Virus record (IMG/VR): IMGVR_UViG_3300036823_000301
Coordinates: 10,424-74,423 of that record
DNA length: 64,000 nt
DNA from: a virus
Strand: one strand, 5' to 3'
Position numbers and translations under genes: made by a program. Under the pieces are notes generated by a model. The model made no database searches. It was not told the origin of the DNA and was given only the letters and a program-made list of their open reading frames with translations. Below are positions 16,363 to 42,661 of this stretch, piece by piece. Positions within the stretch are counted from its first letter, which is position 1, and the number at the start of each line of letters is the position of its first letter.

Positions 16363-17805
16363 ATGATCTCTTTGACCTATCCGGCGTCTGCCAACGGCAC
16401 TACGGCTGGTCCGTCAGGCATAGCGATCAATGATACAAACAGCACAAGTTGGGTAATCACTGGCCCCAGCAACGAGATTGAGCGGCTCTCGCCTACTACT
16501 GGTGGCGTCCTCGACGCGTCCACATCGAATGTGGACGCCCTTACCTTAGTGAATGGGGTGATCTGGCAGCAAGCACACCCTAGCTGGGCACCGACGACGG
16601 CCTATTGGTTCAAGTGGACTGGAAGCGGTTGGAGCGCCGGCCAGACCGCTTCCCCGTTAGCTGGCGTGCCAAGCACCGACGGCAGCTACATTGGCACGCC
16701 GCCTGCTGGCACGCTCGGCACCAACGTCACGGACCAGCTCCTGGTCGATAATCAGGGGAATGTCTGGGGGTTGGTGAATGGGCAAGTAACCGAAAACGGT
16801 GTGATTGATAAGACCACCGACGGCGTCCAGGCACTAGAAATTCACAATGGCGTTCTCTGGCAGGAAGCAGTCCCAAGCTGGGGTAATGGCAACGACTACT
16901 TCTTCCAGTGGACGGGGAAGACCTGGGGGACGGGCACCCTCGTGTCCCCCCTGCCCGAGCCGGAAGTTTGGGTGGGCGGCGGCAACAACAACGCATCCAA
17001 TCCAACTGACTGGTTACAGGGACACGTCCCGCAAGCAAGTGAAGGTCTCGCGGATATTCTCAGCGGCACCATCAATGTGCACGGCAACGATATGGTCAAC
17101 GACACCTTGCATATTGCGGGTCCCGAAGATTTTATTGGCCCGACGTCAGCCACGACCATCAATCTCTTCGCGCAGCCCGCGTTCAATATGACCGTTGGTC
17201 AGGGGGCATCTGCGATTACAATCAATATTGAGAATCAGTCGCGGTGGACAGGGGGTATCAACACGAATCCATTCGCGACCGACAGCGTCGTGAATGGTCC
17301 AGGCGTCTGGCAGAACACAAATTCATCCATCGAGCGTGGGCTCGCGGTCAACGCGCCAGTCGCCAGTGTCGGTGGGATCTTCGACTTGGCTGGTAATCAT
17401 GGTGGGACGCCAACCTTGGAATTCATGCAGAGTGTTGTTGGCCAGACGGTCTACGTGGAAGGTGGTTCCTACGCCAACGTCCCCAGCGCGCTGAAAATTG
17501 ACGACCCCAAGGATTTCCAATCGTCAATCCAGCTGGGATTTGGCTCCATCGATCTGAAAGGCATTCTGGCTTCGATGTACCAGTTCGATGGTAAGACCTT
17601 GACCCTCTATAATGCAGCCAATCAGAAGGTAGAGACGCTGAATCTAGCACTGGACACCAATCCGACGGCTCATAGCGGCGGTTTTGGAGCCACCCATCTG
17701 GGGGTATTCCAAGTTGGCTCGGACGTGGTTATCGCTGGCAATAGCCAGAACTACAATTCCTACACACCGGCAGCGGGATCGATCGCTCTGCCAATACATG
17801 CCTGA
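16363..17805 (+). CDS. Surface/adhesin-like protein with two Trp-rich modules and a beta-rich C-terminal region
   Basis: Two copies of D..(G)..W....G...D..T..V.AL...NGV.WQ.A.PSW....Y.F.WTG..W; GGAG RBS. Confidence 0.75.
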   Translation: MISLTYPASANGTTAGPSGIAINDTNSTSWVITGPSNEIERLSPTTGGVLDASTSNVDALTLVNGVIWQQAHPSWAPTTAYWFKWTGSGWSAGQTASPLAGVPSTDGSYIGTPPAGTLGTNVTDQLLVDNQGNVWGLVNGQVTENGVIDKTTDGVQALEIHNGVLWQEAVPSWGNGNDYFFQWTGKTWGTGTLVSPLPEPEVWVGGGNNNASNPTDWLQGHVPQASEGLADILSGTINVHGNDMVNDTLHIAGPEDFIGPTSATTINLFAQPAFNMTVGQGASAITINIENQSRWTGGINTNPFATDSVVNGPGVWQNTNSSIERGLAVNAPVASVGGIFDLAGNHGGTPTLEFMQSVVGQTVYVEGGSYANVPSALKIDDPKDFQSSIQLGFGSIDLKGILASMYQFDGKTLTLYNAANQKVETLNLALDTNPTAHSGGFGATHLGVFQVGSDVVIAGNSQNYNSYTPAAGSIALPIHA

Positions 17806-25460: not shown

Positions 25461-25651
25461 TATTCATCATCCTCGCTTATAAGACCGCGTTTAATGAAAA
25501 CGCCACGCAGACACGAATAAATTTTCCACCATGTCCGCCAACGCTGCATATGTTCGACCTGTCGAATGAGATCCGCATGACCCTTTATAGCTGACAAGAC
25601 CTTGTTCTTGAAGTGATCTTCGGCGTCCGTCACATCGACAGAATCGCACAA
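25460..25651 (-). CDS. Small hypothetical protein
   Basis: Overlaps both neighbours; composition unlike structural genes. Confidence 0.4.
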   Translation of the reverse strand: MCDSVDVTDAEDHFKNKVLSAIKGHADLIRQVEHMQRWRTWWKIYSCLRGVFIKRGLISEDDE

Positions 25652-28116
25652 GAGAGCGCAGGAACGGTAACAGAAGCCGTCAGGCCGCCTGTAACGGCTA
25701 CGGAAGTGACTGTGCCAGGAGTGTTTTGGACAGGGGAGCCAGTGGGGGTTGCCGTTGCGCTTCCCAGACTAGAGCTCGTGGGATAAGACCAATATGCGGC
25801 GGTGCCATTACCGGTTGAATTCACAGGCCAATGTGAGAGTGCGATCTGACCTGTGACCGCCGACCCCCCTGGATTAACGATTGCAACTCCAAATTTCGTG
25901 CCTGATTTAACACCCCACGCGATCAAACTTCCCCCTGTCCCAGTCGAAGAAGAACCAACCATCGTACCGGGTGTTGGAATTGAAGAAATCAAACGTTGTA
26001 TGGTGTAGTATTGAGGATACACATTGAAACTGCTATCGATTAGCTGATATGCGGCACCCGCATCATCCATAATATCCCAAAGACCCATCCACGCTGGATT
26101 CCTTGTTGCGGTAGAAGCGAAACCCATCGTTGCCGATACCAAAAGTGCCGCACCGGCTGATGTTCCAGCACGGAGATCGGAGAATGACGCCCCGCATTCG
26201 TTGTTATATTCACCAAGAAATACGGGAGCAGTTGCTAAATAGGTGCCGTTAAGATTACCTTGTGCTGTTGGCACTAAAGTTTGATAAGTCGGAGTCTGTA
26301 TGTTGCCGGTTGTACTCTTATTGCCTGCACACATTTGCGCATTTGTCGGTGTAGCTTCTTGACCTTGACAGTAAAAATATTGATGAAAATTCAAATAAGC
26401 TAAGCTAGTAATAGTGTTCGCATTGATAAAACCGGTGTCGAATCCGCTTGGATTATAACCCGCGCTAACCGGTCCGCCAACTTTAAAACTTGCGTTGGTT
26501 TGACGGTATCCAGCACTCCCAGCGGCAAATTGTGCAGTGTAGTTTCCAGGTAAATTCGGTTCGTTGTTAACTTCCCAGTAGTTGCATGGGATCGTGCCGT
26601 TGGCTACCCAGAAATCTGATACTGCTTTGAATTGAGCTTGCGTCGTATAATTGCTGCCTATGATAAGTGTACAGGTGCTCGGGAACATCGCGCTAGCTTG
26701 TGTCGCGAAGGCCGACAAATTGCTGGCGGCAGGTTGACTATCTGACCATCCACTGTGCAGCCGGAACAGGGGGAGATTGAGTGCTCGCACTAAGTTTCGA
26801 AACGTCGCGTTGCTAAGATAGGCCCAGTTATTGTTCGCTAGGCCGATGCCAGATACCCCGAAAATCTGTGGCTGAATCGTGATGTTCGACCCACCAGCCG
26901 GATTAGTTAGATTCGTGAAATCGACATTGACGAAATTGCCGGTCACAGAGGGGCCGACAGACGGTCCGGAGGACCCGACGATGCTGAAAGTCGTCGGCCC
27001 CAGTGGGCTACCAACAGCTCCGGCGAGCGTTGCTGTGACTCCCAGACTGTAAGTTCGTGCCGCTGTCGTCTGCGAGGTGACAATTGTCGCTTGATCAGAG
27101 TTGACGGCAAAGAACGCCGCATCCGTCCCCGATAGAGTCAGGGCTCCCCCTGTCCCAGGAAATTTGTTGGCTGGTGTCGTACCAATGGTAACCGTCCCCA
27201 CGGTGATCGGGGACGTCCCTACCGAGAATGTCAGGGGGGACAGTGCTGCTGAGTTGAGGCTGACCTGATTCGGATTTGTGATCTGAAAAACGTTTGAGGT
27301 TGCCGTTACTGTGGTCGCGTTGGCGTCCCTTACTGCGACCACAGCATTCGAGATGACGGTTGCCTCTGATGGGTGGATGAATGAGAATGAGGTCGTGTTG
27401 ACATTAGATCCGGCCGGCAAAGCGAGCCATGTGCCGCTTCCGTTGTCCATGTATTGCAGCGTCGGTGCCGTTGCATAGTTGAAAATCGATCCTGTGATCG
27501 TCCACGCGACACTGATAACTTGGCTCACAACAGATCCGACAGATAAGGCTGGACCGACAACAACCGGACTTACGGAAACAGACCAGCCAGTCCCATTCCA
27601 ACTCCACCATCCCGGTGTGCCACTGGCGTTGCCAAGCACGCTCTCATAATATACGCGATGATTATGATAATAGAGTTGTATGACTTGTGCCGTGGTAGCG
27701 TCAGCCGTGCCATTGCGAAGCACTTGGCCCGCAAGACTGATTGTCCAAATGTCTAGCGTTGCCCCTGCCGTAGCTGCTGTGCCCGCAGTTTGGCTCGCAA
27801 AGACGATAGGGCCTACCGAATTGACTGAAAATCCTTCAACCGTTTCGGTAATTGGGCACTGAATTGCTGTCCACACCGAGCCATTCCATGTCCACCATCC
27901 AGGAGATCCGAAGCTGCTGCCGTTTGCGGCTGAGTGGTAAATGGTGTGGTTGTGATACCACAGGCATAAACAGGCCGATGTTGTGGAATCCGCTGAACCA
28001 TTGTGACTGACCAATCCGCCGCTGGTGAGTTCCCAGATGTCCAGCGACCCCCCTGCTACCGGCACTGCGCCGGCAGTTGGGCTCGCATAAATAACTTGCG
28101 AAAGTGATTCAGACAT
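25630..28116 (-). CDS. Virion glycoside hydrolase (clan GH-A, GH39/GH79-like) with two Trp-rich modules and Ig/cadherin-like domains
   Basis: WEVNNEP (acid/base), KVGGP, NFHQY, FLGEYN (nucleophile), C-terminal VTVPALS beta-sandwich. Confidence 0.78.
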   Translation of the reverse strand: MSESLSQVIYASPTAGAVPVAGGSLDIWELTSGGLVSHNGSADSTTSACLCLWYHNHTIYHSAANGSSFGSPGWWTWNGSVWTAIQCPITETVEGFSVNSVGPIVFASQTAGTAATAGATLDIWTISLAGQVLRNGTADATTAQVIQLYYHNHRVYYESVLGNASGTPGWWSWNGTGWSVSVSPVVVGPALSVGSVVSQVISVAWTITGSIFNYATAPTLQYMDNGSGTWLALPAGSNVNTTSFSFIHPSEATVISNAVVAVRDANATTVTATSNVFQITNPNQVSLNSAALSPLTFSVGTSPITVGTVTIGTTPANKFPGTGGALTLSGTDAAFFAVNSDQATIVTSQTTAARTYSLGVTATLAGAVGSPLGPTTFSIVGSSGPSVGPSVTGNFVNVDFTNLTNPAGGSNITIQPQIFGVSGIGLANNNWAYLSNATFRNLVRALNLPLFRLHSGWSDSQPAASNLSAFATQASAMFPSTCTLIIGSNYTTQAQFKAVSDFWVANGTIPCNYWEVNNEPNLPGNYTAQFAAGSAGYRQTNASFKVGGPVSAGYNPSGFDTGFINANTITSLAYLNFHQYFYCQGQEATPTNAQMCAGNKSTTGNIQTPTYQTLVPTAQGNLNGTYLATAPVFLGEYNNECGASFSDLRAGTSAGAALLVSATMGFASTATRNPAWMGLWDIMDDAGAAYQLIDSSFNVYPQYYTIQRLISSIPTPGTMVGSSSTGTGGSLIAWGVKSGTKFGVAIVNPGGSAVTGQIALSHWPVNSTGNGTAAYWSYPTSSSLGSATATPTGSPVQNTPGTVTSVAVTGGLTASVTVPALSCAILSM

Positions 28117-31100
28117 TAAACACCAGTATCGTTGGATGATAGCACGACAACGGATCGTGCTGGAATATTTAAAGAACCATCTGTAAGGTTAGCTATCGGA
28201 TGCGATGCATAAAGGGGTGGATTGCTGTTCGCTGGTGACATCTCCCAATAGTTGAAAGTTGACCCAGTTAGCCCTTGCACGGTAAAAGAAGATGCAACGG
28301 CGGACGTATCATAGTTTGTGATCCAAACAGACCAATTAGTTGAGGTTCCATAAGGCACAGATGCAAACACTAGAAAATTTGCTGGTAAACCACTCCCGAG
28401 AGTGACTGTGTGTTGAGTTCCAGGCATTGTACGTCCGAGCTTACCAAGCACATACCCCTGTGGATAGATCGTATTACCATCGTTAGACACAATTTTGAAA
28501 TTGTTATTCTGGTCTTGTTCCCAAATGGCGCTTCCCCATGCACGTGATCCAGCACTTTTCAGTGCCAAACCAGTATACAAAGATACAAAAAGAGCACCAT
28601 CGCTTGTAGCGAGCATGGGTTCAGTGCCATTGTAATCAATATTATATTCACTCATAAATAATTGAGAAGAAGGGAAAAATTGAGCAATCACCTGTAGATC
28701 AGAATTCTGTCGGGTCACCGTTTTAGCTAGCATGCTAGCAGCATCGTTTACGGTATAGCCCCCTGTTAAATAGCAGTGCCAATCGATAAAATCAGGTTTG
28801 TTGCTGTTACTTGCCAAAGCAGACAAAAATCCATTGCTGCTAGCATCTCCAGCATCAGCATACACTGGACCACCGACCCAATAGTTCGGATTAATTTTTT
28901 TCAACGCTGTGTAGCAGGTATTGAAGTTGCTTATCCAAGCTGATGCGGTAATTCCCGGCTCATTATAAATTTGCCAGATGAAGCACTCTACACCTTTACT
29001 TTTGAAAAGGTTTGCAATCGCTGTGCAATCAGATGCTGTTGCAGCATAATTAGTTTCTGATCCACCAAGTGTAAATGCATTGAGCATGTGGCCCGGTGTC
29101 GTGTCTGTAGGACCAGTCCCCTGCACCCAATACGCAGATGATCCAGTGAAATAATTCACCGTGCCAGATGTGTCTGTTCCATTGGCTGCGGCCGTCCAGC
29201 TCGGTGTACTGCCGGTTGCGTTATTTCGGAAAAGACGAAACCCAAGCTGGCGATATTTCGCTTGGAAATTAGAATTCAAAAACGGTAAAAAATCATTCGA
29301 GGAACCGGCAAAGTCGCCGCCTTCAGTTCCCACACCCCATAGATACGGACTGATTGTGCTCACAGTCGATGTTTGAACAGCAATTCCTTTCGCAACGGCT
29401 GTTCCACCGACAATGGTTGCACCAGCGCTTGCGGTGACAGATTTCGCAGATGTCAGGGGGGAACCGCTTGCCCCTGTCATTTTGCCAATAATATTGAAAC
29501 TATACGTGCCCGCTCCAATTGTGGCATTAGCCAACGTCAGGTTCGTGCCAGAGACACCAAACAGGTTCGCATTTGTGCCTGAAAGCGTGAGTCCGCCGGA
29601 CAGATCCGGGACGAACGTTCCCCCTGTCGTAGCCACAGTAATAGGACTGACGACGGTTCCAACAGCAGAGTTCGCGGCAAAAGTTGTGGTAGGTAACGTG
29701 ATGCTAGTCAACGTTACTGAGGCTGGATTCTCGATCACTAAAGTTACGGAACCTGTCGCGGTCGCTGTGTTCGCTGAATCCTGAATATGTATAACAAAAC
29801 TAGATGAGGCCGCGGCAACAAGTGGATGTGTAAATGAAAAAGTAGTTGCGGTAACTATGGGAGACGGAATATTAGTAAATGATCCGCTGTTATCAGCATA
29901 TTGTAGTGTCGTAGGTGCCACGGTGTAGTTTGTCAGTGTCCCGGACACTACAAACGTTTGATTGATGATCTGCGTGTTAACGGTCGATACCGACAACGAA
30001 GGTCCTGGAGGCCGTGGATCGACGGTGCCAAAATCGTCCCAGTTCGTACCATCCCATGTCCACCAATTACCCGGCGTGGGAAAATCACTATCGACTACCT
30101 GCTGGTACATGACGTTGTTGTACCACAGCAACAGCGTCACGCTGGATGACGTGCCGGCAGCAGCACCATTCAAAAGAATAACACCCCCAACGACGGTCCA
30201 GATCCCACCACTGTTGTCTATGATTTGCGAGGCTGATGGAATTGTGGTTCCGCTCGCGGATGCCCCTGCCGCTTGAGCGATCATCGAGCTGAATGTGTGG
30301 GTCAGGGGGGACCCTACTGCACCGGCTTGGGTCGCTGTGACAGTGTCTGAGTAGGTTCCAGGTAACAAGGCTGATGCTGTCGTCAATGTCGTACCGCTCA
30401 GCGTAAACTGTGCTGTGTTGGTATGATTTAATGTGCCAGTGAACGATCCGGTTGGGCTCGTTGTGACAGAAATTGTGCCAACAGTCGCACCAGATTGATT
30501 CGCGTTGAAAGACGTCGCAGACAAATTAATTACGCTTAATGTAATCGTAGCCTGTGCGGTCAACGTGTTGAGCGTCGAAGACAGCGGGGAATTCGTGGCC
30601 CCTTGGAGGGTCGCTGTGATGGTGTCGGTGTAGGTTCCGACGGCCAACGCAACCGCCGTCGTCAATGTTGTGCCAGTTAGCGTAAATTGGGCGCTGTTGG
30701 TGTGTGACAAGATGCCAGTAAAGGCTCCCACAGGAGTTGTGTTGACAGTGAGGCTACCGATCGAAGCACCGGCGACGTTCGCGGTAAAATTCGTATTGGA
30801 CAGTGTGATGGAATTTAAGGTGACAGTCGGAGCTGGCCCTTGTGTGATTCCGGTCTGTGATAGTGCATAAACACAAAACGTTCCGTCTGTTGTCTCATTT
30901 AGCGGCGGCGCGGTTGAAACCCAAGTTGTACCATTCCAGAAGCTCCACCCTGGTGTCCCCCCTGTCCCTCCGGAACCAGGGAGATTTCCGGGAGCAGTGG
31001 CAGCATTGAAATTGGCACCATCCCACGAAAACCAATTTCCGCTTGAGGAATCTTGCGCGTAAACAACACCGTTGTAGAGATCGATCGCGCCGGTCCCACC

Positions 31101-31664
31101 GGCGCCAGGGACGTCGTTGCCGTTTTCAACAACATTCCCTGAAGTGTCGATCGACCAGACATTTCCTGACGAATCCGTAAAAGAGCCAGAGCCGGGGGTC
31201 GCATAGGTTCCACTCCCAGTGCCGGAACCCGGCAAGTTTCCCGGTGCAGTCGCTGAATCAAAGGACGACCCATTCCAAGTGAACCAGTTCCCGCTGGCAC
31301 CGTCCTCCGCGTAGACCTGCCCATTGTAGAGATCGATCGCTCCGGTGCCATCACCACCGGGAATCGCTGTACCGTTTTCCAGCACATTGCCATTGGTATC
31401 AATCGACCAAATGTTGCCCGAGCCATCCACAAATTGGCCGACACCGGGCGTGGCGTACGTACCTTGCCCGGTGTTTGTTGTCATTTCAAGTTGGTAGACG
31501 AAATGATTGTGGTAAGCGAGGATCAGGACCCCACTTGTTGCCCCTGTCACCACGACGCCGTTTTTCGTTGCGGCCCCGGATGAATTGATCTCCCACGAAT
31601 CAAAAGGACCTAATATTGGTGCCGCAGTTCCTGGTGTCTGCGAAGCTAAAATGACCCCGCTCAT
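28116..31664 (-). CDS. Virion glycoside hydrolase (clan GH-A) paralogue with four Trp-rich modules and three cadherin-like domains
   Basis: WQIYNEP, VGGP, DFIDWHCY, FMSEYN, IPARSVVVL; colinear with the C-terminal part of the 828-aa gene. Confidence 0.78.
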   Translation of the reverse strand: MSGVILASQTPGTAAPILGPFDSWEINSSGAATKNGVVVTGATSGVLILAYHNHFVYQLEMTTNTGQGTYATPGVGQFVDGSGNIWSIDTNGNVLENGTAIPGGDGTGAIDLYNGQVYAEDGASGNWFTWNGSSFDSATAPGNLPGSGTGSGTYATPGSGSFTDSSGNVWSIDTSGNVVENGNDVPGAGGTGAIDLYNGVVYAQDSSSGNWFSWDGANFNAATAPGNLPGSGGTGGTPGWSFWNGTTWVSTAPPLNETTDGTFCVYALSQTGITQGPAPTVTLNSITLSNTNFTANVAGASIGSLTVNTTPVGAFTGILSHTNSAQFTLTGTTLTTAVALAVGTYTDTITATLQGATNSPLSSTLNTLTAQATITLSVINLSATSFNANQSGATVGTISVTTSPTGSFTGTLNHTNTAQFTLSGTTLTTASALLPGTYSDTVTATQAGAVGSPLTHTFSSMIAQAAGASASGTTIPSASQIIDNSGGIWTVVGGVILLNGAAAGTSSSVTLLLWYNNVMYQQVVDSDFPTPGNWWTWDGTNWDDFGTVDPRPPGPSLSVSTVNTQIINQTFVVSGTLTNYTVAPTTLQYADNSGSFTNIPSPIVTATTFSFTHPLVAAASSSFVIHIQDSANTATATGSVTLVIENPASVTLTSITLPTTTFAANSAVGTVVSPITVATTGGTFVPDLSGGLTLSGTNANLFGVSGTNLTLANATIGAGTYSFNIIGKMTGASGSPLTSAKSVTASAGATIVGGTAVAKGIAVQTSTVSTISPYLWGVGTEGGDFAGSSNDFLPFLNSNFQAKYRQLGFRLFRNNATGSTPSWTAAANGTDTSGTVNYFTGSSAYWVQGTGPTDTTPGHMLNAFTLGGSETNYAATASDCTAIANLFKSKGVECFIWQIYNEPGITASAWISNFNTCYTALKKINPNYWVGGPVYADAGDASSNGFLSALASNSNKPDFIDWHCYLTGGYTVNDAASMLAKTVTRQNSDLQVIAQFFPSSQLFMSEYNIDYNGTEPMLATSDGALFVSLYTGLALKSAGSRAWGSAIWEQDQNNNFKIVSNDGNTIYPQGYVLGKLGRTMPGTQHTVTLGSGLPANFLVFASVPYGTSTNWSVWITNYDTSAVASSFTVQGLTGSTFNYWEMSPANSNPPLYASHPIANLTDGSLNIPARSVVVLSSNDTGV

Positions 31665-31843
31665 GAAGCGAACCAGTCCTCCGTTGTCTTACTAACCGGA
31701 CCGCTTAGATGCCGGCGTAGATAGATCCGCTTTTCAGTGGATTTGGCCAACCATTGCCAGCCACTACCAGCATAAAGGATATCACGGCTTTTCAGCCACT
31801 CTTCTTCCGTCAGACAGCGGCTATCGTAAACAGATTTTTCCAT
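31661..31843 (-). CDS. Small hypothetical protein
   Basis: ATGA-coupled to the downstream gene. Confidence 0.4.
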   Translation of the reverse strand: MEKSVYDSRCLTEEEWLKSRDILYAGSGWQWLAKSTEKRIYLRRHLSGPVSKTTEDWFAS

Positions 31844-31856
31844 CTGGTCGCTTATA

Positions 31857-32963
31857 TCAGGTTTGTCTGATTACTTGTGTGCCTTCTGACGATTCGAGGA
31901 TCGTGACAGATGCAGCGCCTGTGCCTGCAATACGGCTTGTCCCCTGTTGCGTATGAGCCGCCGTGGTCGTCGCTGCTGTAACATTACCGGTGCCAGCAAG
32001 CGCGGCTTGCCCAACCTGTTGGTGGCCTGGAATGATCGCGCTGACCTTAACCGAAACTGCGCCCGGAATCACAGCGCTTGCATTGGCTCCAGATGCCTGG
32101 GCCACAACAACGGCCGAACCTCGCAGCGTTGCCGTCCCAGCGGCCGGCGTATGTGGTGCACCGATAATCGTACCCTGTGCTGAGATATTGATCATCGCGA
32201 ACTGCGGCAGGTTCCCCCTGACAATGAGCGAACCAGAGCCTTGAATCGTCGCAAAGCTGTTATTGCTCGGAACAACAACCGGAAGGCTTTGAATCTGCGA
32301 TGGGTCAACACCCCACGCGCCGATGTCGAGCCCGCTGATAAACGAGGTCTCGACATCGAGTCCGAACAGGGGAGCTGTCTCGTAGCTGGTCACGTAGATG
32401 TTGAGCCGCACACCTTCCGGCTTAAACGGCACATAGTTACCTGTGATCATATAAAATATGAGGCGAGGTGGATATTGACCGGAAATTCCGATATCCATAG
32501 TCATGTCATAATTATCGATGATGCCAAAGATTGTAGACGGATATGGATTTAGAATTGTTTGCAGCGCCTGCTGCATTTGTGTAATCGTACCATTCCATTG
32601 ATTGGCAACAATTTTAGCACGTAGGAGTTGACGATAAGTTTCATCGTCAAAACTGGTCAGCCCTTCAGATGGCGTAAACGGCCCGAACCACACCCCCTGA
32701 TCAAAGCCGAGGCCAGGGATGTCGAATGAAAAAAAGACATCTGGTAGTGGTACTTCAATTTGTCGGGACCGGCCAATCCACAAACCATCAATATCAAGCT
32801 GAACACCAACAGCTTCATCGAGATCGAATTGCTGTGGAAGACCTTCGAGAAATCGCTGCAATGAGACAAGCGGCGCCGTCAGTAGCGAGACTGTTGCTTC
32901 GAATTTCGGTTTGCCGCGATGTTCTCCGGCTAAGAGACTAATGTAATCCTGAATTGTTCTCAA
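31857..32963 (-). CDS. Baseplate wedge protein (DUF2612) with C-terminal repeat extension
   Basis: FDLDEAVGVQLDI.G.WIGRSR, DDETYR.LLRAKI.ANQWNGT, KPEGV; then ~140 extra aa of A.I.G.G repeats. Confidence 0.9.
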   Translation of the reverse strand: MRTIQDYISLLAGEHRGKPKFEATVSLLTAPLVSLQRFLEGLPQQFDLDEAVGVQLDIDGLWIGRSRQIEVPLPDVFFSFDIPGLGFDQGVWFGPFTPSEGLTSFDDETYRQLLRAKIVANQWNGTITQMQQALQTILNPYPSTIFGIIDNYDMTMDIGISGQYPPRLIFYMITGNYVPFKPEGVRLNIYVTSYETAPLFGLDVETSFISGLDIGAWGVDPSQIQSLPVVVPSNNSFATIQGSGSLIVRGNLPQFAMINISAQGTIIGAPHTPAAGTATLRGSAVVVAQASGANASAVIPGAVSVKVSAIIPGHQQVGQAALAGTGNVTAATTTAAHTQQGTSRIAGTGAASVTILESSEGTQVIRQT

Positions 32964-41991: not shown

Positions 41992-42661
41992 TTAGCTCAA
42001 AGTGATCGTCAACGCTCCGCTCGCAATGACCAGCGAGTCTCCAATTCCTAAAGTTCTCACGGTTGAAAGCAAACCGTACCAAAGATAAGAACCATTAGTG
42101 CTGGAGGCAGTATCCCAAATTGAAATACCAGATACAGAGCATGCACCGGACACCGGGCCGAAGGTCATGGCCACCGTATTGGAGGCAGAACCGGCAGGCG
42201 AGGCGGCAGGGGCAAACGACACAGTTTGCCGCGTGATACCAGACCCCAGAGCGATTTCTGAAGCTGATACCGAAGACGGCGAACCCAACGAAATATTGAC
42301 ACCCATTGCACCAGGGCGCGTTGGAGTCGCCCCGAGCAGAACCCAATCAAGCATCCTATGTGTTCGCGACAGGCCGTTAATCCTATCACCGCTCTTTCGA
42401 GCTGCTGCATATCCCTATGCAGAGCAGATCATGTCATCACCCATTGCATCAAATGGGGCCGGGCGCTTCCACTCACTTGAGTGTACTCCCTCGCGGGATG
42501 ATCGTTGCACCTTCCGTCTTGCGACGGCTTGGCTCAAAGTTAACCGTTCTGGTACTTCTTTGAGTTCACCCGGTTCTTCGATAGATTTCTCAATCTAAAG
42601 GGCCAAAACTCATTCGTTACGGAGTCTTTGCCTTTTGGGCATACGTGCTGATACCAGCCAC
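41992..42661 (-). CDS. Small fibre-associated structural protein, spliced: join(42661-42630, 42355-41992), ~131 aa
   Basis: AGGAG RBS + GTG gives MAGISTYAQKA, which joins MLDWVLLGATPTRP...GDSLVIASGALTITLS and restores the S.Y.....LD N-terminus I recall for this family. Confidence 0.82.
42356..42629 (-). ncRNA. ORF-less group I self-splicing intron (~274 nt; boundaries +/-1 nt)
   Basis: On - strand: P2 TAGATT-GAGA-AATCTA; P3 CCGGGTG/CGCCCGG; P4 CTCAAAG/CTTTGAG; P6a CCGTC-GCAA-GACGG; R GGTGCAACGATCA and S GACATGATCTG forming P7; P7.1 TCCC-GCGA-GGGA; P7.2 CACTC-AAGT-GAGTG; P8 CCCATT/AATGGG; three P9 hairpins; terminal G. Confidence 0.88.

What the first reader, a model, noticed from the sequence alone, without database searches (positions are those of the whole stretch)
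25630..32963. Second daisy chain: donor strand of a Trp-rich module passed from the DUF2612 wedge to GH-1182 to GH-828
Seen: complete copies of the Trp-rich module begin with a leader such as ETVEGFSV (828 aa), ASASGTTI (1182 aa) or PSTDGSYI (480 aa). The DUF2612 protein ends with an orphan leader (ESSEGTQVIRQT*), and the 1182-aa protein begins with a leaderless module (MSGVILASQTPG, cf. ETVEGFSVNSVGPIVFASQTAG). Inside the 1182-aa protein a second orphan leader (ETTDGTFCVYA, ~30865-30897) is followed by cadherin-like domains rather than its module, while the 828-aa protein begins with a leaderless module (MSESLSQVIYASPTAG). Inference: the same split-domain logic with a different fold hangs two glycoside hydrolases from a second wedge protein. 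Occurring twice independently argues against accident, but the donor motif is short.
Basis: partly seen in the sequence, partly recalled or inferred. Interest (0 to 1): 0.78.

Follow-up and report, generated by a model that had tools for sequence, protein, structure and literature searches.

The report
Phage lectin-like domain split between genes
In this soil phage, a small sugar-binding-type domain is cut in two by a gene boundary: its first strand ends the baseplate wedge protein and the rest begins a glycosidase. Related phages encode both parts as one protein, so the enzyme probably clips onto the tail by rebuilding the domain, though binding has not been shown.

Summary
The DUF2612 wedge protein ends in LESSEGTQVIRQT*. 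The 1182-aa and 828-aa GH39-like proteins start with Trp-rich modules that lack the family's leader strand. 1182 carries an extra leader (aa 256-267) in front of a cadherin-like domain.

New evidence:
- In a related phage protein (P0051, 1280 aa) the wedge, the leader and the 1182-type module form one polypeptide. Our genes break in the 5-residue loop after the leader, with 195 nt inserted (7 in-frame stops, a 60-aa ORF).
- No intron was detectable in the gap. The DUF2612-stop/insert junction recurs in a second soil metagenome.
- The leader belongs to the module that follows it. Across the family, His at module column 66 always goes with an acidic leader residue (27/27; 0/65 otherwise).
- Both leaderless modules have that His, and both proposed donors have Glu or Asp at the matching position.

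Caveats:
- Physical complementation is untested. An AlphaFold read-through tether was uninformative.
- The leader looks like a short edge element, not a pilin-type core strand.
- The second link (1182 to 828) is weaker.

The closest solved precedent is the Tuc2009 BppU-BppA joint. This scan has noted similar split-domain joints in other phages, with other folds. Verdict: a real gene fission inside a domain, with plug-in attachment plausible (about 0.5 for link 1, about 0.3 for link 2).

The parts
31857..32963 (-). DUF2612 baseplate wedge gene, 368 aa. DUF2612 domain aa 7-188; divergent Ala/Gly/Ser/Thr/Val-rich repeat extension aa ~230-355.
   Evidence: Pfam PF11041 E 1.7e-47. PHROG 587. 56% identical over its whole length to the first 366 aa of the fused protein P0051.
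31869..31898 (-). Orphan leader at the wedge C-terminus: LESSEGTQVI (aa 356-365; Glu360 = leader column 9), followed by RQT and a TGA stop.
   Evidence: Second-best leader-matrix hit in the window. Shuffle P 2.5e-4. Aligns with the cis leader ISESPNNTQAV of P0051. E357, S358 and T362 are invariant in 4 homologues although the extension around them is not conserved.
31665..31859 (-). 195-nt insert that breaks the module. It is in frame with both genes but holds 7 stop codons.
   Evidence: Read-through translation. No Rfam hit of note at E<=10, while the window's real group I intron is found. Fold z -1.5. No flanking repeats. The DUF2612-stop side of the insert is identical in an independent soil metagenome contig covering 31764-31932.
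31661..31843 (-). 60-aa ORF filling the insert. Its TGA overlaps the ATG of the 1182-aa gene (ATGA). Function unknown.
   Evidence: Sequence. No Pfam or PHROG family. No usable Atlas relative; the Atlas's own model has pLDDT 0.55.
28116..31664 (-). 1182-aa GH39-like protein. Order: leaderless module M1 with two nested modules, extra leader, two cadherin-like domains, complete module M4, Ig-like domains, clan GH-A catalytic domain.
   Evidence: Weak GH39 hit (Pfam 23.5 bits against a cut-off of 26; PDB GH39 xylosidases E 5e-4 to 9e-3). NEP and EYN motifs shared with 828.
31470..31664 (-). M1a: leaderless first part of module M1 (aa 1-65; strand 2 and two hairpins; His52 = column 66).
   Evidence: 49% identical to P0051 aa 372-431, which follow that protein's own leader after 5 residues. 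HMM hit starts at model position 18.
30969..31469 (-). Two complete modules (A aa 66-143, B aa 144-232) nested in the hairpin-2/hairpin-3 loop of M1.
   Evidence: phmmer/jackhmmer domains. P0051 and P0011 have an uninterrupted M1 at this point.
30903..30968 (-). M1b: last hairpin of M1 (aa 233-254, GTPGWSFWNGTTWVSTAPP).
   Evidence: Matches GTPGWSQWNGSAWTAVANP of P0051 and the module consensus.
30864..30899 (-). Extra ('orphan') leader L' of 1182: NETTDGTFCVYA (aa 256-267; Asp260 = column 9).
   Evidence: Conserved as AETAAGTFGVYT in P0051 and TESSAGTFGVYTV* (protein end) in P0011. Followed by a cadherin-like fold, not a module.
30549..30833 (-). First cadherin-like domain of 1182 (aa 278-372).
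   Evidence: VIA-align best Z 8.6, rmsd 3.0 A, 92 aligned, protocadherin-15 EC domains. pLDDT about 80.
30009..30266 (-). Complete module M4 of 1182 with its own leader (aa 467-552).
25630..28116 (-). 828-aa glycosidase-like protein. Its start overlaps the 1182 stop (TAATG).
   Evidence: The C-terminal 443 aa are homologous to the 1182 catalytic domain (24% identity, E 7e-9).
27853..28116 (-). 828 module M1 (aa 1-88). It lacks the leader strand but keeps M-SES; His55 = column 66.
   Evidence: AlphaFold2 pLDDT about 95 without a leader. Orthologous start MSETLSQIIYAS in P0006.
27565..27852 (-). 828 module M2 with its cis leader ITETVEGFSV (aa 89-184; Glu94/His151).

Best explanation
The wedge protein (DUF2612) and the 1182-aa GH39-like enzyme are the two pieces of what related phages make as one polypeptide.

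Shown:
- The break lies in the short loop between the first element (leader, consensus T-E-S-x-[ED]-G-T-x-V) and the second strand of a ~90-residue Trp-rich module.
- The module is built from beta-meanders like two propeller blades. In other proteins it accompanies glycoside hydrolases.
- A 195-nt insert carrying a small ORF, a ribosome-binding site and a new ATG caused the break.

Inferred:
- At the moment of fission, the only interface left between the two halves was the packing of the leader against the rest of its module, including an acid-histidine contact between leader column 9 and the Y-H-N-H turn.
- The wedge's C-terminal leader (Glu360) most likely still inserts into the leaderless module at the N-terminus of 1182 (His52) and holds the enzyme on the baseplate.
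- A second joint of the same kind, between the extra leader of 1182 (Asp260) and the leaderless first module of the 828-aa enzyme (His55), is possible but less sure.

My odds: gene fission inside a domain about 0.95; link 1 works by strand re-insertion about 0.5; link 2 about 0.3.
For: (1) Fused form. P0051 aa 1-366 aligns with our DUF2612 aa 1-365 at 56% identity up to the leader. P0051 aa 372-431 aligns with 1182 from aa 5 at 49%. P0011 and P0154 also carry leader plus module on the wedge protein.

(2) The leader belongs to the module that follows it. A leader motif precedes 38% of first modules but follows only 4% of last modules. 27 of 52 N-terminal modules start with it right after Met or a signal peptide. 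Leader column 9 and module column 66 give the third-strongest DCA coupling. Their mutual information has z 9.5 with the following module against 3.7 with the preceding one.

(3) The rule, computed without the window's proteins or these relatives: His66 goes with an acidic column 9 in 27/27 cases, and a non-acidic column 9 never has His66 (0/65). Fisher P is 2.5e-16, or 1.8e-9 with one module per protein. Our split pairs obey it (E360/H52, D260/H55). The relatives carry N/L, T/K and T/S in cis, and A/N for P0051 L' with P0006.

(4) E357, S358 and T362 of the tail are invariant in four homologues, inside an otherwise divergent extension.

(5) The split is real. No intron is detectable. Seven in-frame stops lie in the insert. 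The junction on the DUF2612 side is identical in a second soil sample, and no joined form was seen.

(6) L' is as conserved as the module core (7/11 identical between 1182 and P0051). P0011 ends 3 residues after it.

(7) Context. A DUF2612 wedge protein of Pseudomonas phage K8 associates with the neighbouring tail fibre protein (PMC9887876). A solved precedent exists for a baseplate protein's C-terminal hairpin completing a sheet of an accessory sugar-binding protein (Tuc2009, PMC4742702).
Against: - No binding or multimer evidence. In the read-through tether model the wedge peptide stayed unstructured (pLDDT 33-43), though that model was too poor to count.
- In the confident model of 828 aa 1-290 the cis leader makes only a two-residue bridge, and the leaderless module reaches pLDDT about 95. 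The strand may be dispensable and bind weakly.
- A few other family members also start without a canonical leader.
- 828 and P0006 keep S-E-S/T of the leader in cis, which could clash with a donated E-T.
- The Glu/His and Asp/His agreement has only about a 0.14 chance probability, and it could simply predate the split.
- P0011's C-terminal end could be a contig break. Its contig, and the 37.8-kb contig of P0051/P0006, could not be fetched.
- Four DUF2612 loci (38-46% identity) and six more distant ones (23-38%) in viral contigs show no such modules.
Confidence: 0.5

Rival explanations
1. Vestige model. The fission is real, but the leader tails are harmless leftovers of a break at a permissive site. 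The leaderless modules fold alone. The enzymes are then held on the virion by other contacts, or are simply released as soluble enzymes at lysis. Other contacts could be whole modules of different chains packing into a shared propeller as two-blade lectins do, the nested modules A/B, or the wedge's repeat extension.
For: - AlphaFold2 models the leaderless module at pLDDT about 95, and the cis leader as only a two-residue bridge.
- Fold matches are to propeller blades and to two-blade lectins that oligomerise (RSL 7e7v/4csd, PLL 5c9o, BP39L 6gxr, fragment 2yms).
- Only 38-42% of first modules have a recognisable leader, and some proteins start without one.
- The tether model did not dock the peptide.
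- The nested A/B modules are unique to the split form.
Against: - The E-S...T core of the tail is invariant in four homologues within a divergent extension.
- L' is as conserved as the module core.
- His66 never occurs without an acidic leader residue in 103 cis cases, yet both leaderless modules here keep His66, and their proposed donors are acidic.
- Several family proteins stop 3-4 residues after a leader.
- The fold matches are weak (Z 5.2-6.5) and show no closed propeller.
Confidence: 0.4
2. Link 2 is not a donor-acceptor pair. The extra leader of 1182 is a cis element (a cap or linker of module M1 leading into the cadherin-like domain). The 828-type N-terminus is just a module variant with a shortened leader of its own (M-S-E-S/T).
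For: - MAFFT aligns MSES of 828 with the T-E-S start of complete leaders, with an 8-residue deletion after it.
- L' and about 10 residues beyond it are conserved with P0051 as one linker into the cadherin-like domain.
- L' scores -0.3 on the family leader matrix.
- Structural alignments of M1 sometimes run on through the next leader (to model residues 103-106), whereas those of M2 start at residue 100.
Against: - Trailing leaders are rare in the family (4% of last modules), and so are leaderless N-terminal modules.
- Asp260/His55 here against Ala/Asn in the relative fits the family rule.
Confidence: 0.45
3. The break is not real at the protein level. Either an intron, ribosomal bypass or read-through restores one DUF2612-1182 polypeptide, or the insert is an assembly error or a defective variant.
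For: - Both ORFs are in the same frame, and the insert is a multiple of three (195 nt).
- The phage has a genuine group I intron in another tail-region gene (42405-42621, 54.7 bits).
Against: - No Rfam intron hit in or around the gap even at E<=10, with the same library finding the other intron.
- No unusual folding (z -1.5).
- Seven in-frame stops rule out read-through, and 195 nt is far beyond known bypass lengths (own knowledge).
- The insert is filled by an ORF whose stop overlaps the next ATG behind a GGAGGA.
- The DUF2612-stop side of the junction is identical in an independent soil metagenome, and no joined form appears in three runs.
Confidence: 0.03

Closest known systems
Lactococcus phage Tuc2009 baseplate joint BppU-BppA (crystal structure; Legrand et al. 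2016, PMC4742702)
   Same: In both, a baseplate protein carries a short C-terminal extension that completes a beta-sheet of a separate accessory protein bearing a carbohydrate-binding module. [quoted passage not shown] The joint serves to hang an extra sugar-recognising unit on the baseplate.
   Different: - Siphovirus, with no sequence relationship.
- The acceptor is an Ig/titin-like sandwich at the C-terminus of BppA and the donor is a two-strand hairpin. Here the acceptor is a propeller-blade-like module at the N-terminus and the donor is one short leader.
- Here there may be two links in series, the cargo is an enzyme, and a naturally fused orthologue exists.
- Here nothing has been solved.
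Donor-strand complementation/exchange of chaperone-usher pili (Fim, Pap; own knowledge)
   Same: One subunit supplies a strand that the neighbouring subunit's domain lacks, so that proteins are chained head to tail.
   Different: - Pilins lack the C-terminal core strand of an Ig fold and cannot fold without it. Here the missing piece is an N-terminal edge element, and the module is modelled confidently without it.
- The donor here is a C-terminal tail, not an N-terminal extension.
- No chaperone or usher is evident.
Gene fission/fusion ('Rosetta stone') pairs as evidence of interaction (Marcotte et al. 1999; own knowledge)
   Same: Two adjacent proteins here are one collinear protein in a relative (P0051).
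   Different: Typical Rosetta-stone breaks fall between domains. This one falls inside a domain, one strand from its start, so the halves share a ready-made interface.
Branched tailspike complexes of Ackermannviridae (CBA120 TSP1-4; PMC8825819, abstract seen)
   Same: Several glycan-degrading proteins are hung in series from one baseplate attachment point through their N-terminal parts.
   Different: In CBA120, attachment is by dedicated anchor and assembly domains in the N-terminal part of TSP4 (abstract), not by a domain divided between two genes. Those enzymes are trimeric beta-helix tailspikes (own knowledge); these are clan GH-A-like enzymes.
Two-blade beta-propeller lectins (Ralstonia RSL, Photorhabdus PLL, Burkholderia BP39L)
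   Same: About 90-residue, Trp-rich units of two four-stranded meanders. They are among the structural matches to the module.
   Different: The matches are weak: Foldseek E 4e-3, VIA Z 5.6-5.7. There is no sequence match to any solved chain, and neither sugar binding nor ring formation has been shown.
DUF2612 wedge protein GP075 of Pseudomonas phage K8 (PMC9887876)
   Same: The same Pfam family. It lies next to the fibre gene, is reported to associate with the fibre protein GP076, and influences receptor binding.
   Different: Most DUF2612 proteins found here are short (~220 aa), with no repeat extension, leader or module.

Membership tests
DUF2612 (PF11041) baseplate wedge proteins | Match to the Pfam model above its curated cut-off | tested here: met
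   162.2 bits against a cut-off of 23.5, E 1.7e-47, aa 7-188. 360 homologues at E<=1e-5.
Gene fission/fusion (Rosetta-stone) pair | The two separate proteins are collinear parts of one protein in another genome | tested here: met
   P0051 aa 1-366 = DUF2612 aa 1-365 (56% identity). P0051 aa 372-431 = 1182 from aa 5 (49%).
Tuc2009 BppU-BppA-type joint | The baseplate protein has a short C-terminal extension beyond its conserved core | tested here: met
   About 140-aa extension ending in the leader. Typical DUF2612 proteins are ~220 aa.
Tuc2009 BppU-BppA-type joint | The extension completes a beta-sheet of the partner protein | tested here: inconclusive
   The read-through tether model left the peptide at pLDDT 33-43, but it also failed on a covalent hairpin of the same module. 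Indirect support comes from the cis homologues and the column 9/column 66 rule.
Tuc2009 BppU-BppA-type joint | The partner carries a carbohydrate-recognising unit | tested here: met
   GH39-like catalytic domain with NEP and EYN motifs. In relatives the module family co-occurs with GH5, GH16, GH39 and CBM6.
Chaperone-usher donor-strand complementation | The acceptor is an Ig-like pilin fold lacking its C-terminal core strand | tested here: not met
   The acceptor matches propeller blades, not Ig. The missing element is N-terminal. The module is modelled at pLDDT about 95 without it.
Chaperone-usher donor-strand complementation | A dedicated chaperone lends the strand before exchange | not testable with these tools
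   The only candidate, the 60-aa ORF, has no relatives and no leader-like motif.
Two-blade beta-propeller lectins (RSL/PLL type) | Clear structural match over a two-blade unit | tested here: inconclusive
   Foldseek E 3.9e-3 for RSL. VIA Z 5.7 (rmsd 2.6, 69 aligned) for PLL. Best overall Z is 6.5, below the level that separates relatives from common arrangements.
Two-blade beta-propeller lectins (RSL/PLL type) | Sugar binding at Trp-lined sites; assembly into a closed propeller | not testable with these tools
   No coordinates or multimer prediction were available. The two-module arrangement superposes on propellers only at rmsd 6-10 A.
Glycoside hydrolase family 39 (PF01229) | Match above the Pfam gathering score | tested here: inconclusive
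   1182 scores 23.5 bits against a cut-off of 26. PDB GH39 xylosidases match at E 5e-4 to 9e-3. 828 has no direct hit, but it is homologous to 1182 (E 7e-9) and shares the NEP and EYN motifs.
Group I intron in the DUF2612/1182 gap | Match to RF00028 or a significantly stable fold | tested here: not met
   No such hit at E<=10 in 31400-32100. Fold z -1.5. As a positive control, the window's other intron scores 54.7 bits.

The most novel reading that the evidence does not exclude
A soil myovirus hangs two glycosidases in series from one wedge protein by a plug made of a single short leader strand. The wedge tail plugs into the first enzyme, and an extra leader in that enzyme plugs into the second. 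The socket is a lectin-like, propeller-blade module that elsewhere is an ordinary enzyme appendage. Together with the many split Ig/FN3/lectin joints this scan has flagged in other phages, this would mean that domains split across gene boundaries are a general, exchangeable connector system for phage fibres. Fused and split forms would then interconvert in evolution.
Probability: 0.3. Interest if true: 0.8.

Novelty: new variant of a known kind. Interest (0 to 1): 0.62.

Why it matters
How accessory enzymes and receptor-binding proteins are fastened to phage baseplates decides host range, and it is what engineers must respect when swapping them.

This locus gives an unusually clean natural experiment. 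The same wedge-module junction exists as one chain in a relative and as two chains here, cut one strand into a domain. It also offers a simple residue-pair prediction (Glu360-His52, Asp260-His55) that can be tested with peptides.

If the plug works, a roughly 10-20-residue tag and a ~90-residue socket could be used to load cargo onto phage tails. Annotation pipelines could also read 'orphan' terminal strands as wiring diagrams of virions.

Separately, the module is a widespread, un-annotated candidate carbohydrate-binding family: at least 173 clusters at 50% identity, found with GH5, GH16, GH39 and CBM6.

Tried and rejected
The contigs of P0006/P0051 (37.8 kb) and P0011 (8.7 kb) could therefore not be read.
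- Scans for these contigs or for relatives gave nothing usable: viral contigs, metagenome contigs (one irrelevant 1-kb hit) and genome contigs.
- Ten more distant DUF2612 loci had no modules. L005 holds a 1606-aa module protein outside any baseplate operon.
- Neither the region (megablast) nor the module (tblastn) matched any GenBank phage.
- No solved structure matches the module profile at E<=10. There is no Pfam or PHROG family for it.
- BFVD and PDB Foldseek gave only weak propeller matches.
- AlphaFold2 read-through tether (P0152: wedge tail + 65 junk codons with stops read as Gly + 1182 aa 1-372). The peptide was not docked, but the model was poor (mean pLDDT 62.5, M1b about 40), so it is uninformative. 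A first alignment for this job was dropped because homologues' leaders aligned onto the junk linker.
- Intron, bypass and mobile-element readings of the 195-nt insert were rejected. Promoter and terminator scans were at shuffle level.
- No RNA holder is listed for this stretch, so expression and splicing could not be examined in reads.
- A regex count of N-terminal leaders mis-placed strand 2. It was replaced by a matrix scan.
I re-ran it reading the consensus from the model file instead.
- The idea that YALSQTG after L' is a remnant of strand 2 was dropped, because P0051 has YTIQSGIQTQ there.

Full report
**Setting.** The window is part of a 74.4-kb virus record from soil, judged complete. 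On the minus strand lies a baseplate and fibre operon, in this order:
- 1476-aa and 1033-aa repeat proteins;
- a gp6/J-like wedge subunit (480 aa, PHROG 6);
- the DUF2612 wedge protein (368 aa, 31857-32963);
- a 60-aa ORF (31661-31843);
- the 1182-aa protein (28116-31664);
- the 828-aa protein (25630-28116);
- tail-fibre genes.

The 1182 stop overlaps the 828 start (TAATG), and the small ORF's stop overlaps the 1182 start (ATGA).

**Observation.** Neither 'leaderless' start is an artefact of start-codon choice, because stop codons lie 8 and 24 codons upstream in frame. Three things were overlooked:
- the 60-aa ORF in the DUF2612/1182 gap;
- the first module of 1182 is discontinuous (aa 1-65 and 233-254), with two complete modules nested in its last loop;
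- 828 retains M-S-E-S, which aligns with the T-E-S start of full leaders.

**The module.**
- An exhaustive profile-free search with 828 aa 1-195 found 173 representative proteins at E<=1e-3. An iterated model finds 395 module copies in 151 proteins.
- The module has no Pfam or PHROG family and no sequence match in the PDB.
- It sits at N-termini, in the middle or at C-termini of proteins that also carry GH5, GH16, GH39 or CBM6/35 domains, some behind signal peptides. That is how a carbohydrate-binding appendage behaves.
- AlphaFold2 on 828 aa 1-290 with 48 aligned sequences gives pLDDT >90 for both modules. Each has seven strands, and the cis leader adds a two-residue bridge.
- Structure searches return only beta-propeller proteins. 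One module covers about two blades (best Z 6.5). Two-blade or Trp-rich lectins (RSL, PLL, BP39L, AAL) are among the hits. These scores are too low for membership, so I call the fold 'propeller-blade-like'.
- The catalytic domains of 1182 and 828 are homologous (24% identity, E 7e-9). They share the NEP and EYN motifs of clan GH-A, and 1182 gives weak GH39 matches.

**Is the leader part of the module, and of which one?**
- The family consensus of the leader is T-E-S-x-[E/N/Q/D]-G-T-x-V.
- Of 52 proteins whose module is N-terminal, 27 carry a strong leader directly after Met or a signal peptide. Only a handful, including 828, P0006 and 1182, start at strand 2.
- A leader motif (score >=9) lies upstream of 38% of first modules in an array, but downstream of only 4% of last modules. 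It is therefore an N-terminal element, not a C-terminal one.
- A mean-field DCA on 343 module copies recovers the expected hairpins. Its third-strongest coupling links leader column 9 to column 66, the first His of the Y-H-N-H turn.
- For 53 internal leaders, mutual information between these columns has z 9.5 with the following module and 3.7 with the preceding one.
- With the window's proteins and their close relatives excluded, His at column 66 is accompanied by Glu or Asp at column 9 in 27 of 27 cases, and a non-acidic column 9 never meets His66 (0 of 65). Fisher P is 2.5e-16, or 1.8e-9 with one module per protein. Some of this may be subfamily structure, but the difference between following and preceding modules argues for a contact.

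**The decisive comparison.**
- The closest DUF2612 relatives are not short wedge proteins but fusions. P0011 (460 aa) and P0154 (539 aa) carry extension, leader and a complete module very like the start of 1182.
- P0051 (1280 aa) goes on through a conserved extra leader into a cadherin-like domain, FN3 domains and a further module.
- BLASTP aligns P0051 aa 1-366 with our wedge protein aa 1-365 (56% identity), so that ISESPNNTQAV pairs with ILESSEGTQVI. It aligns P0051 from aa 372 with 1182 from aa 5 at 49%.
- Five residues in P0051 (LPNQA) thus correspond to RQT-stop, 195 nt, and MSGV here. Our two genes are a fission of one module in the loop after its leader.
- Within the poorly conserved extension, E357, S358 and T362 of the tail are invariant in all four proteins.
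- On a leader matrix built without window sequences, the wedge tail is the second-best site among 20,448 residues of the window's proteins. Shuffles of the extension match it at the C-terminus in 0.025% of trials.

**Is the break real?**
- The 195 nt are in frame but hold seven stops.
- Rfam finds nothing relevant there even at E<=10, although it finds the phage's true group I intron at 42405-42621 (54.7 bits).
- The region does not fold unusually (z -1.5) and has no terminal repeats.
- A 169-nt contig from an independent soil metagenome is identical across the wedge stop and the start of the insert. No joined form was seen in three runs. No RNA run is listed, so transcripts could not be examined.

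**Direct test.**
- With only single-chain AlphaFold2 available, I used the fact that both ORFs share a frame. The wedge tail, the 65 junk codons (stops read as Gly) and 1182 aa 1-372 were folded as one chain, with an alignment chosen so that no homologous leader lay on the linker.
- The peptide stayed at pLDDT 33-43 without strand. However, the model was weak (mean 62.5) and also failed to place the covalently attached last hairpin of the same module (about 40). This is no evidence either way.
No coordinates are returned, so the partner of the cis leader's bridge could not be read.

**Second link.**
- The extra leader of 1182 (NETTDGTFCVYA) is conserved in P0051 (AETAAGTFGVYT) and P0011 (TESSAGTFGVYTV, then the protein ends). 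It is as conserved as the module core.
- 828 and its relative P0006 (1535 aa, GH5) both start M-S-E-S/T-L-S-Q at strand 2.
- P0006 and P0051 share sources and a longest-contig length of 37,837 nt, so they are probably from one phage.
- Trailing leaders and leaderless starts are both rare in the family, yet they co-occur here and probably there.
- The column 9/column 66 residues are Asp/His here and Ala/Asn in the relative, which fits the rule. The chance of both of our His modules meeting an acidic donor is about 0.14.
- Against the link: 828 keeps S-E-S in cis; L' scores poorly on the family matrix (-0.3); L' may simply cap M1 or lead into the cadherin-like domain; and P0011's end may be a contig break.
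- Three other proteins in the retrieved set also end 3-4 residues after a leader-like motif (P0011, P0144, P0137). This hints at recurrence, but they may be fragments.

**Mechanism.**
- Shown: a domain-internal gene fission, with the leader on the wedge protein and the rest of the module on the enzyme. The leader is an N-terminal module element whose column 9 covaries with the Y-H-N-H turn.
- Inferred: after fission, the leader-module interface was the only ready-made contact between the halves. Re-insertion of the wedge tail into 1182 is therefore the simplest way for the enzyme to stay on the baseplate. I give this about 0.5.
- The main rival (about 0.4) is that the tail is a vestige and attachment, if any, uses other surfaces. 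Module-module packing of the kind two-blade lectins use is one option, and the nested modules unique to the split form might serve this.
- Restoration of a covalent chain is unlikely (about 0.03).

**Comparison with what is known.**
- The closest solved case is Tuc2009. There the 25-residue C-terminal hairpin of BppU completes a sheet of the accessory CBM protein BppA, and together they form a titin-like domain (PMC4742702).
- Pilus donor-strand complementation is a functional analogy only. Its defining features (Ig fold missing a C-terminal core strand, a chaperone) are not met.
- A DUF2612 wedge protein associating with the adjacent fibre is reported for phage K8 (PMC9887876).
- Full-text searches found no paper combining 'donor strand', tail fibre, baseplate and phage, and none of the listed tailspike papers mentions strand complementation.
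- Earlier notes of this scan describe split Ig, FN3, PKD and lectin joints in other phages (40 notes in at least 38 genomes hold the search words; 8 were shown). None involves this module. They are unchecked leads, but one of them pointed me to the Tuc2009 paper, which I read.

**Verdict.** This is a new variant of a known kind of joint. It has unusually good comparative evidence (a fused orthologue, a break one strand into the domain, a residue-pair rule obeyed across the break), but no physical evidence yet.

Noticed in passing
window 31661-31843 (-): 60-aa ORF exactly filling the insert between the wedge gene and the 1182-aa gene. Its stop overlaps the next ATG. It has no family and no relatives, and the Atlas model has low confidence. 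It could be an assembly helper, or just the vehicle of the fission.
   Followed up: partly
window 30903-31664 (-), 1182 aa 1-254: Domain-in-domain architecture: two complete Trp-rich modules are nested in the last loop of the first module, giving three modules (six blade-like meanders) in one block. This is absent from the fused relatives P0051 and P0011. Whether they close into a propeller could not be modelled.
   Followed up: partly
module family (828 aa 1-184 and 173 representative proteins): A widespread ~90-aa Trp-rich module without any Pfam or PHROG entry. It is found with GH5, GH16, GH39 and CBM6/35 and behind signal peptides, which makes it a candidate new carbohydrate-binding family. 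It shows an absolute rule: His in the Y-H-N-H turn goes with an acidic leader residue (27/27 against 0/65).
   Followed up: partly
window 42405-42621 (-): Group I intron detected by Rfam above its gathering score (54.7 bits, E 4e-11). This agrees with earlier notes on this genome. It was used here only as a positive control.
   Followed up: partly
proteins P0144 (131 aa), P0137 (190 aa), P0011 (460 aa): Like the wedge protein here, these unrelated module proteins end 3-4 residues after a leader-like motif. This may be further split joints, or truncated gene calls at contig ends.
   Followed up: no
window 31899-32276 (-) and proteins P0276, P0277: The wedge extension consists of ~20-aa A-x-L-x-G-x-G-x-V-type repeats, also seen in the 1033-aa and 1476-aa proteins upstream. 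More distant DUF2612 proteins carry similar repeats on one or both sides of the domain.
   Followed up: no
window 16363-17805 (+): A 480-aa protein with two complete modules (its own leaders included) at its N-terminus and an unassigned C-terminal part. It is encoded on the other strand, far from the baseplate operon, and is not part of the proposed chain.
   Followed up: no
proteins P0173, P0184, P0185, P0217, P0256, P0275: Other DUF2612 proteins (Pseudomonas and Burkholderia prophages, metagenomes) carry unrelated large domains fused to the wedge domain (FN3 arrays in P0275; an insertion within the domain in P0256). The wedge C-terminus appears to be a general docking point for exchangeable peripheral domains.
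   Followed up: no
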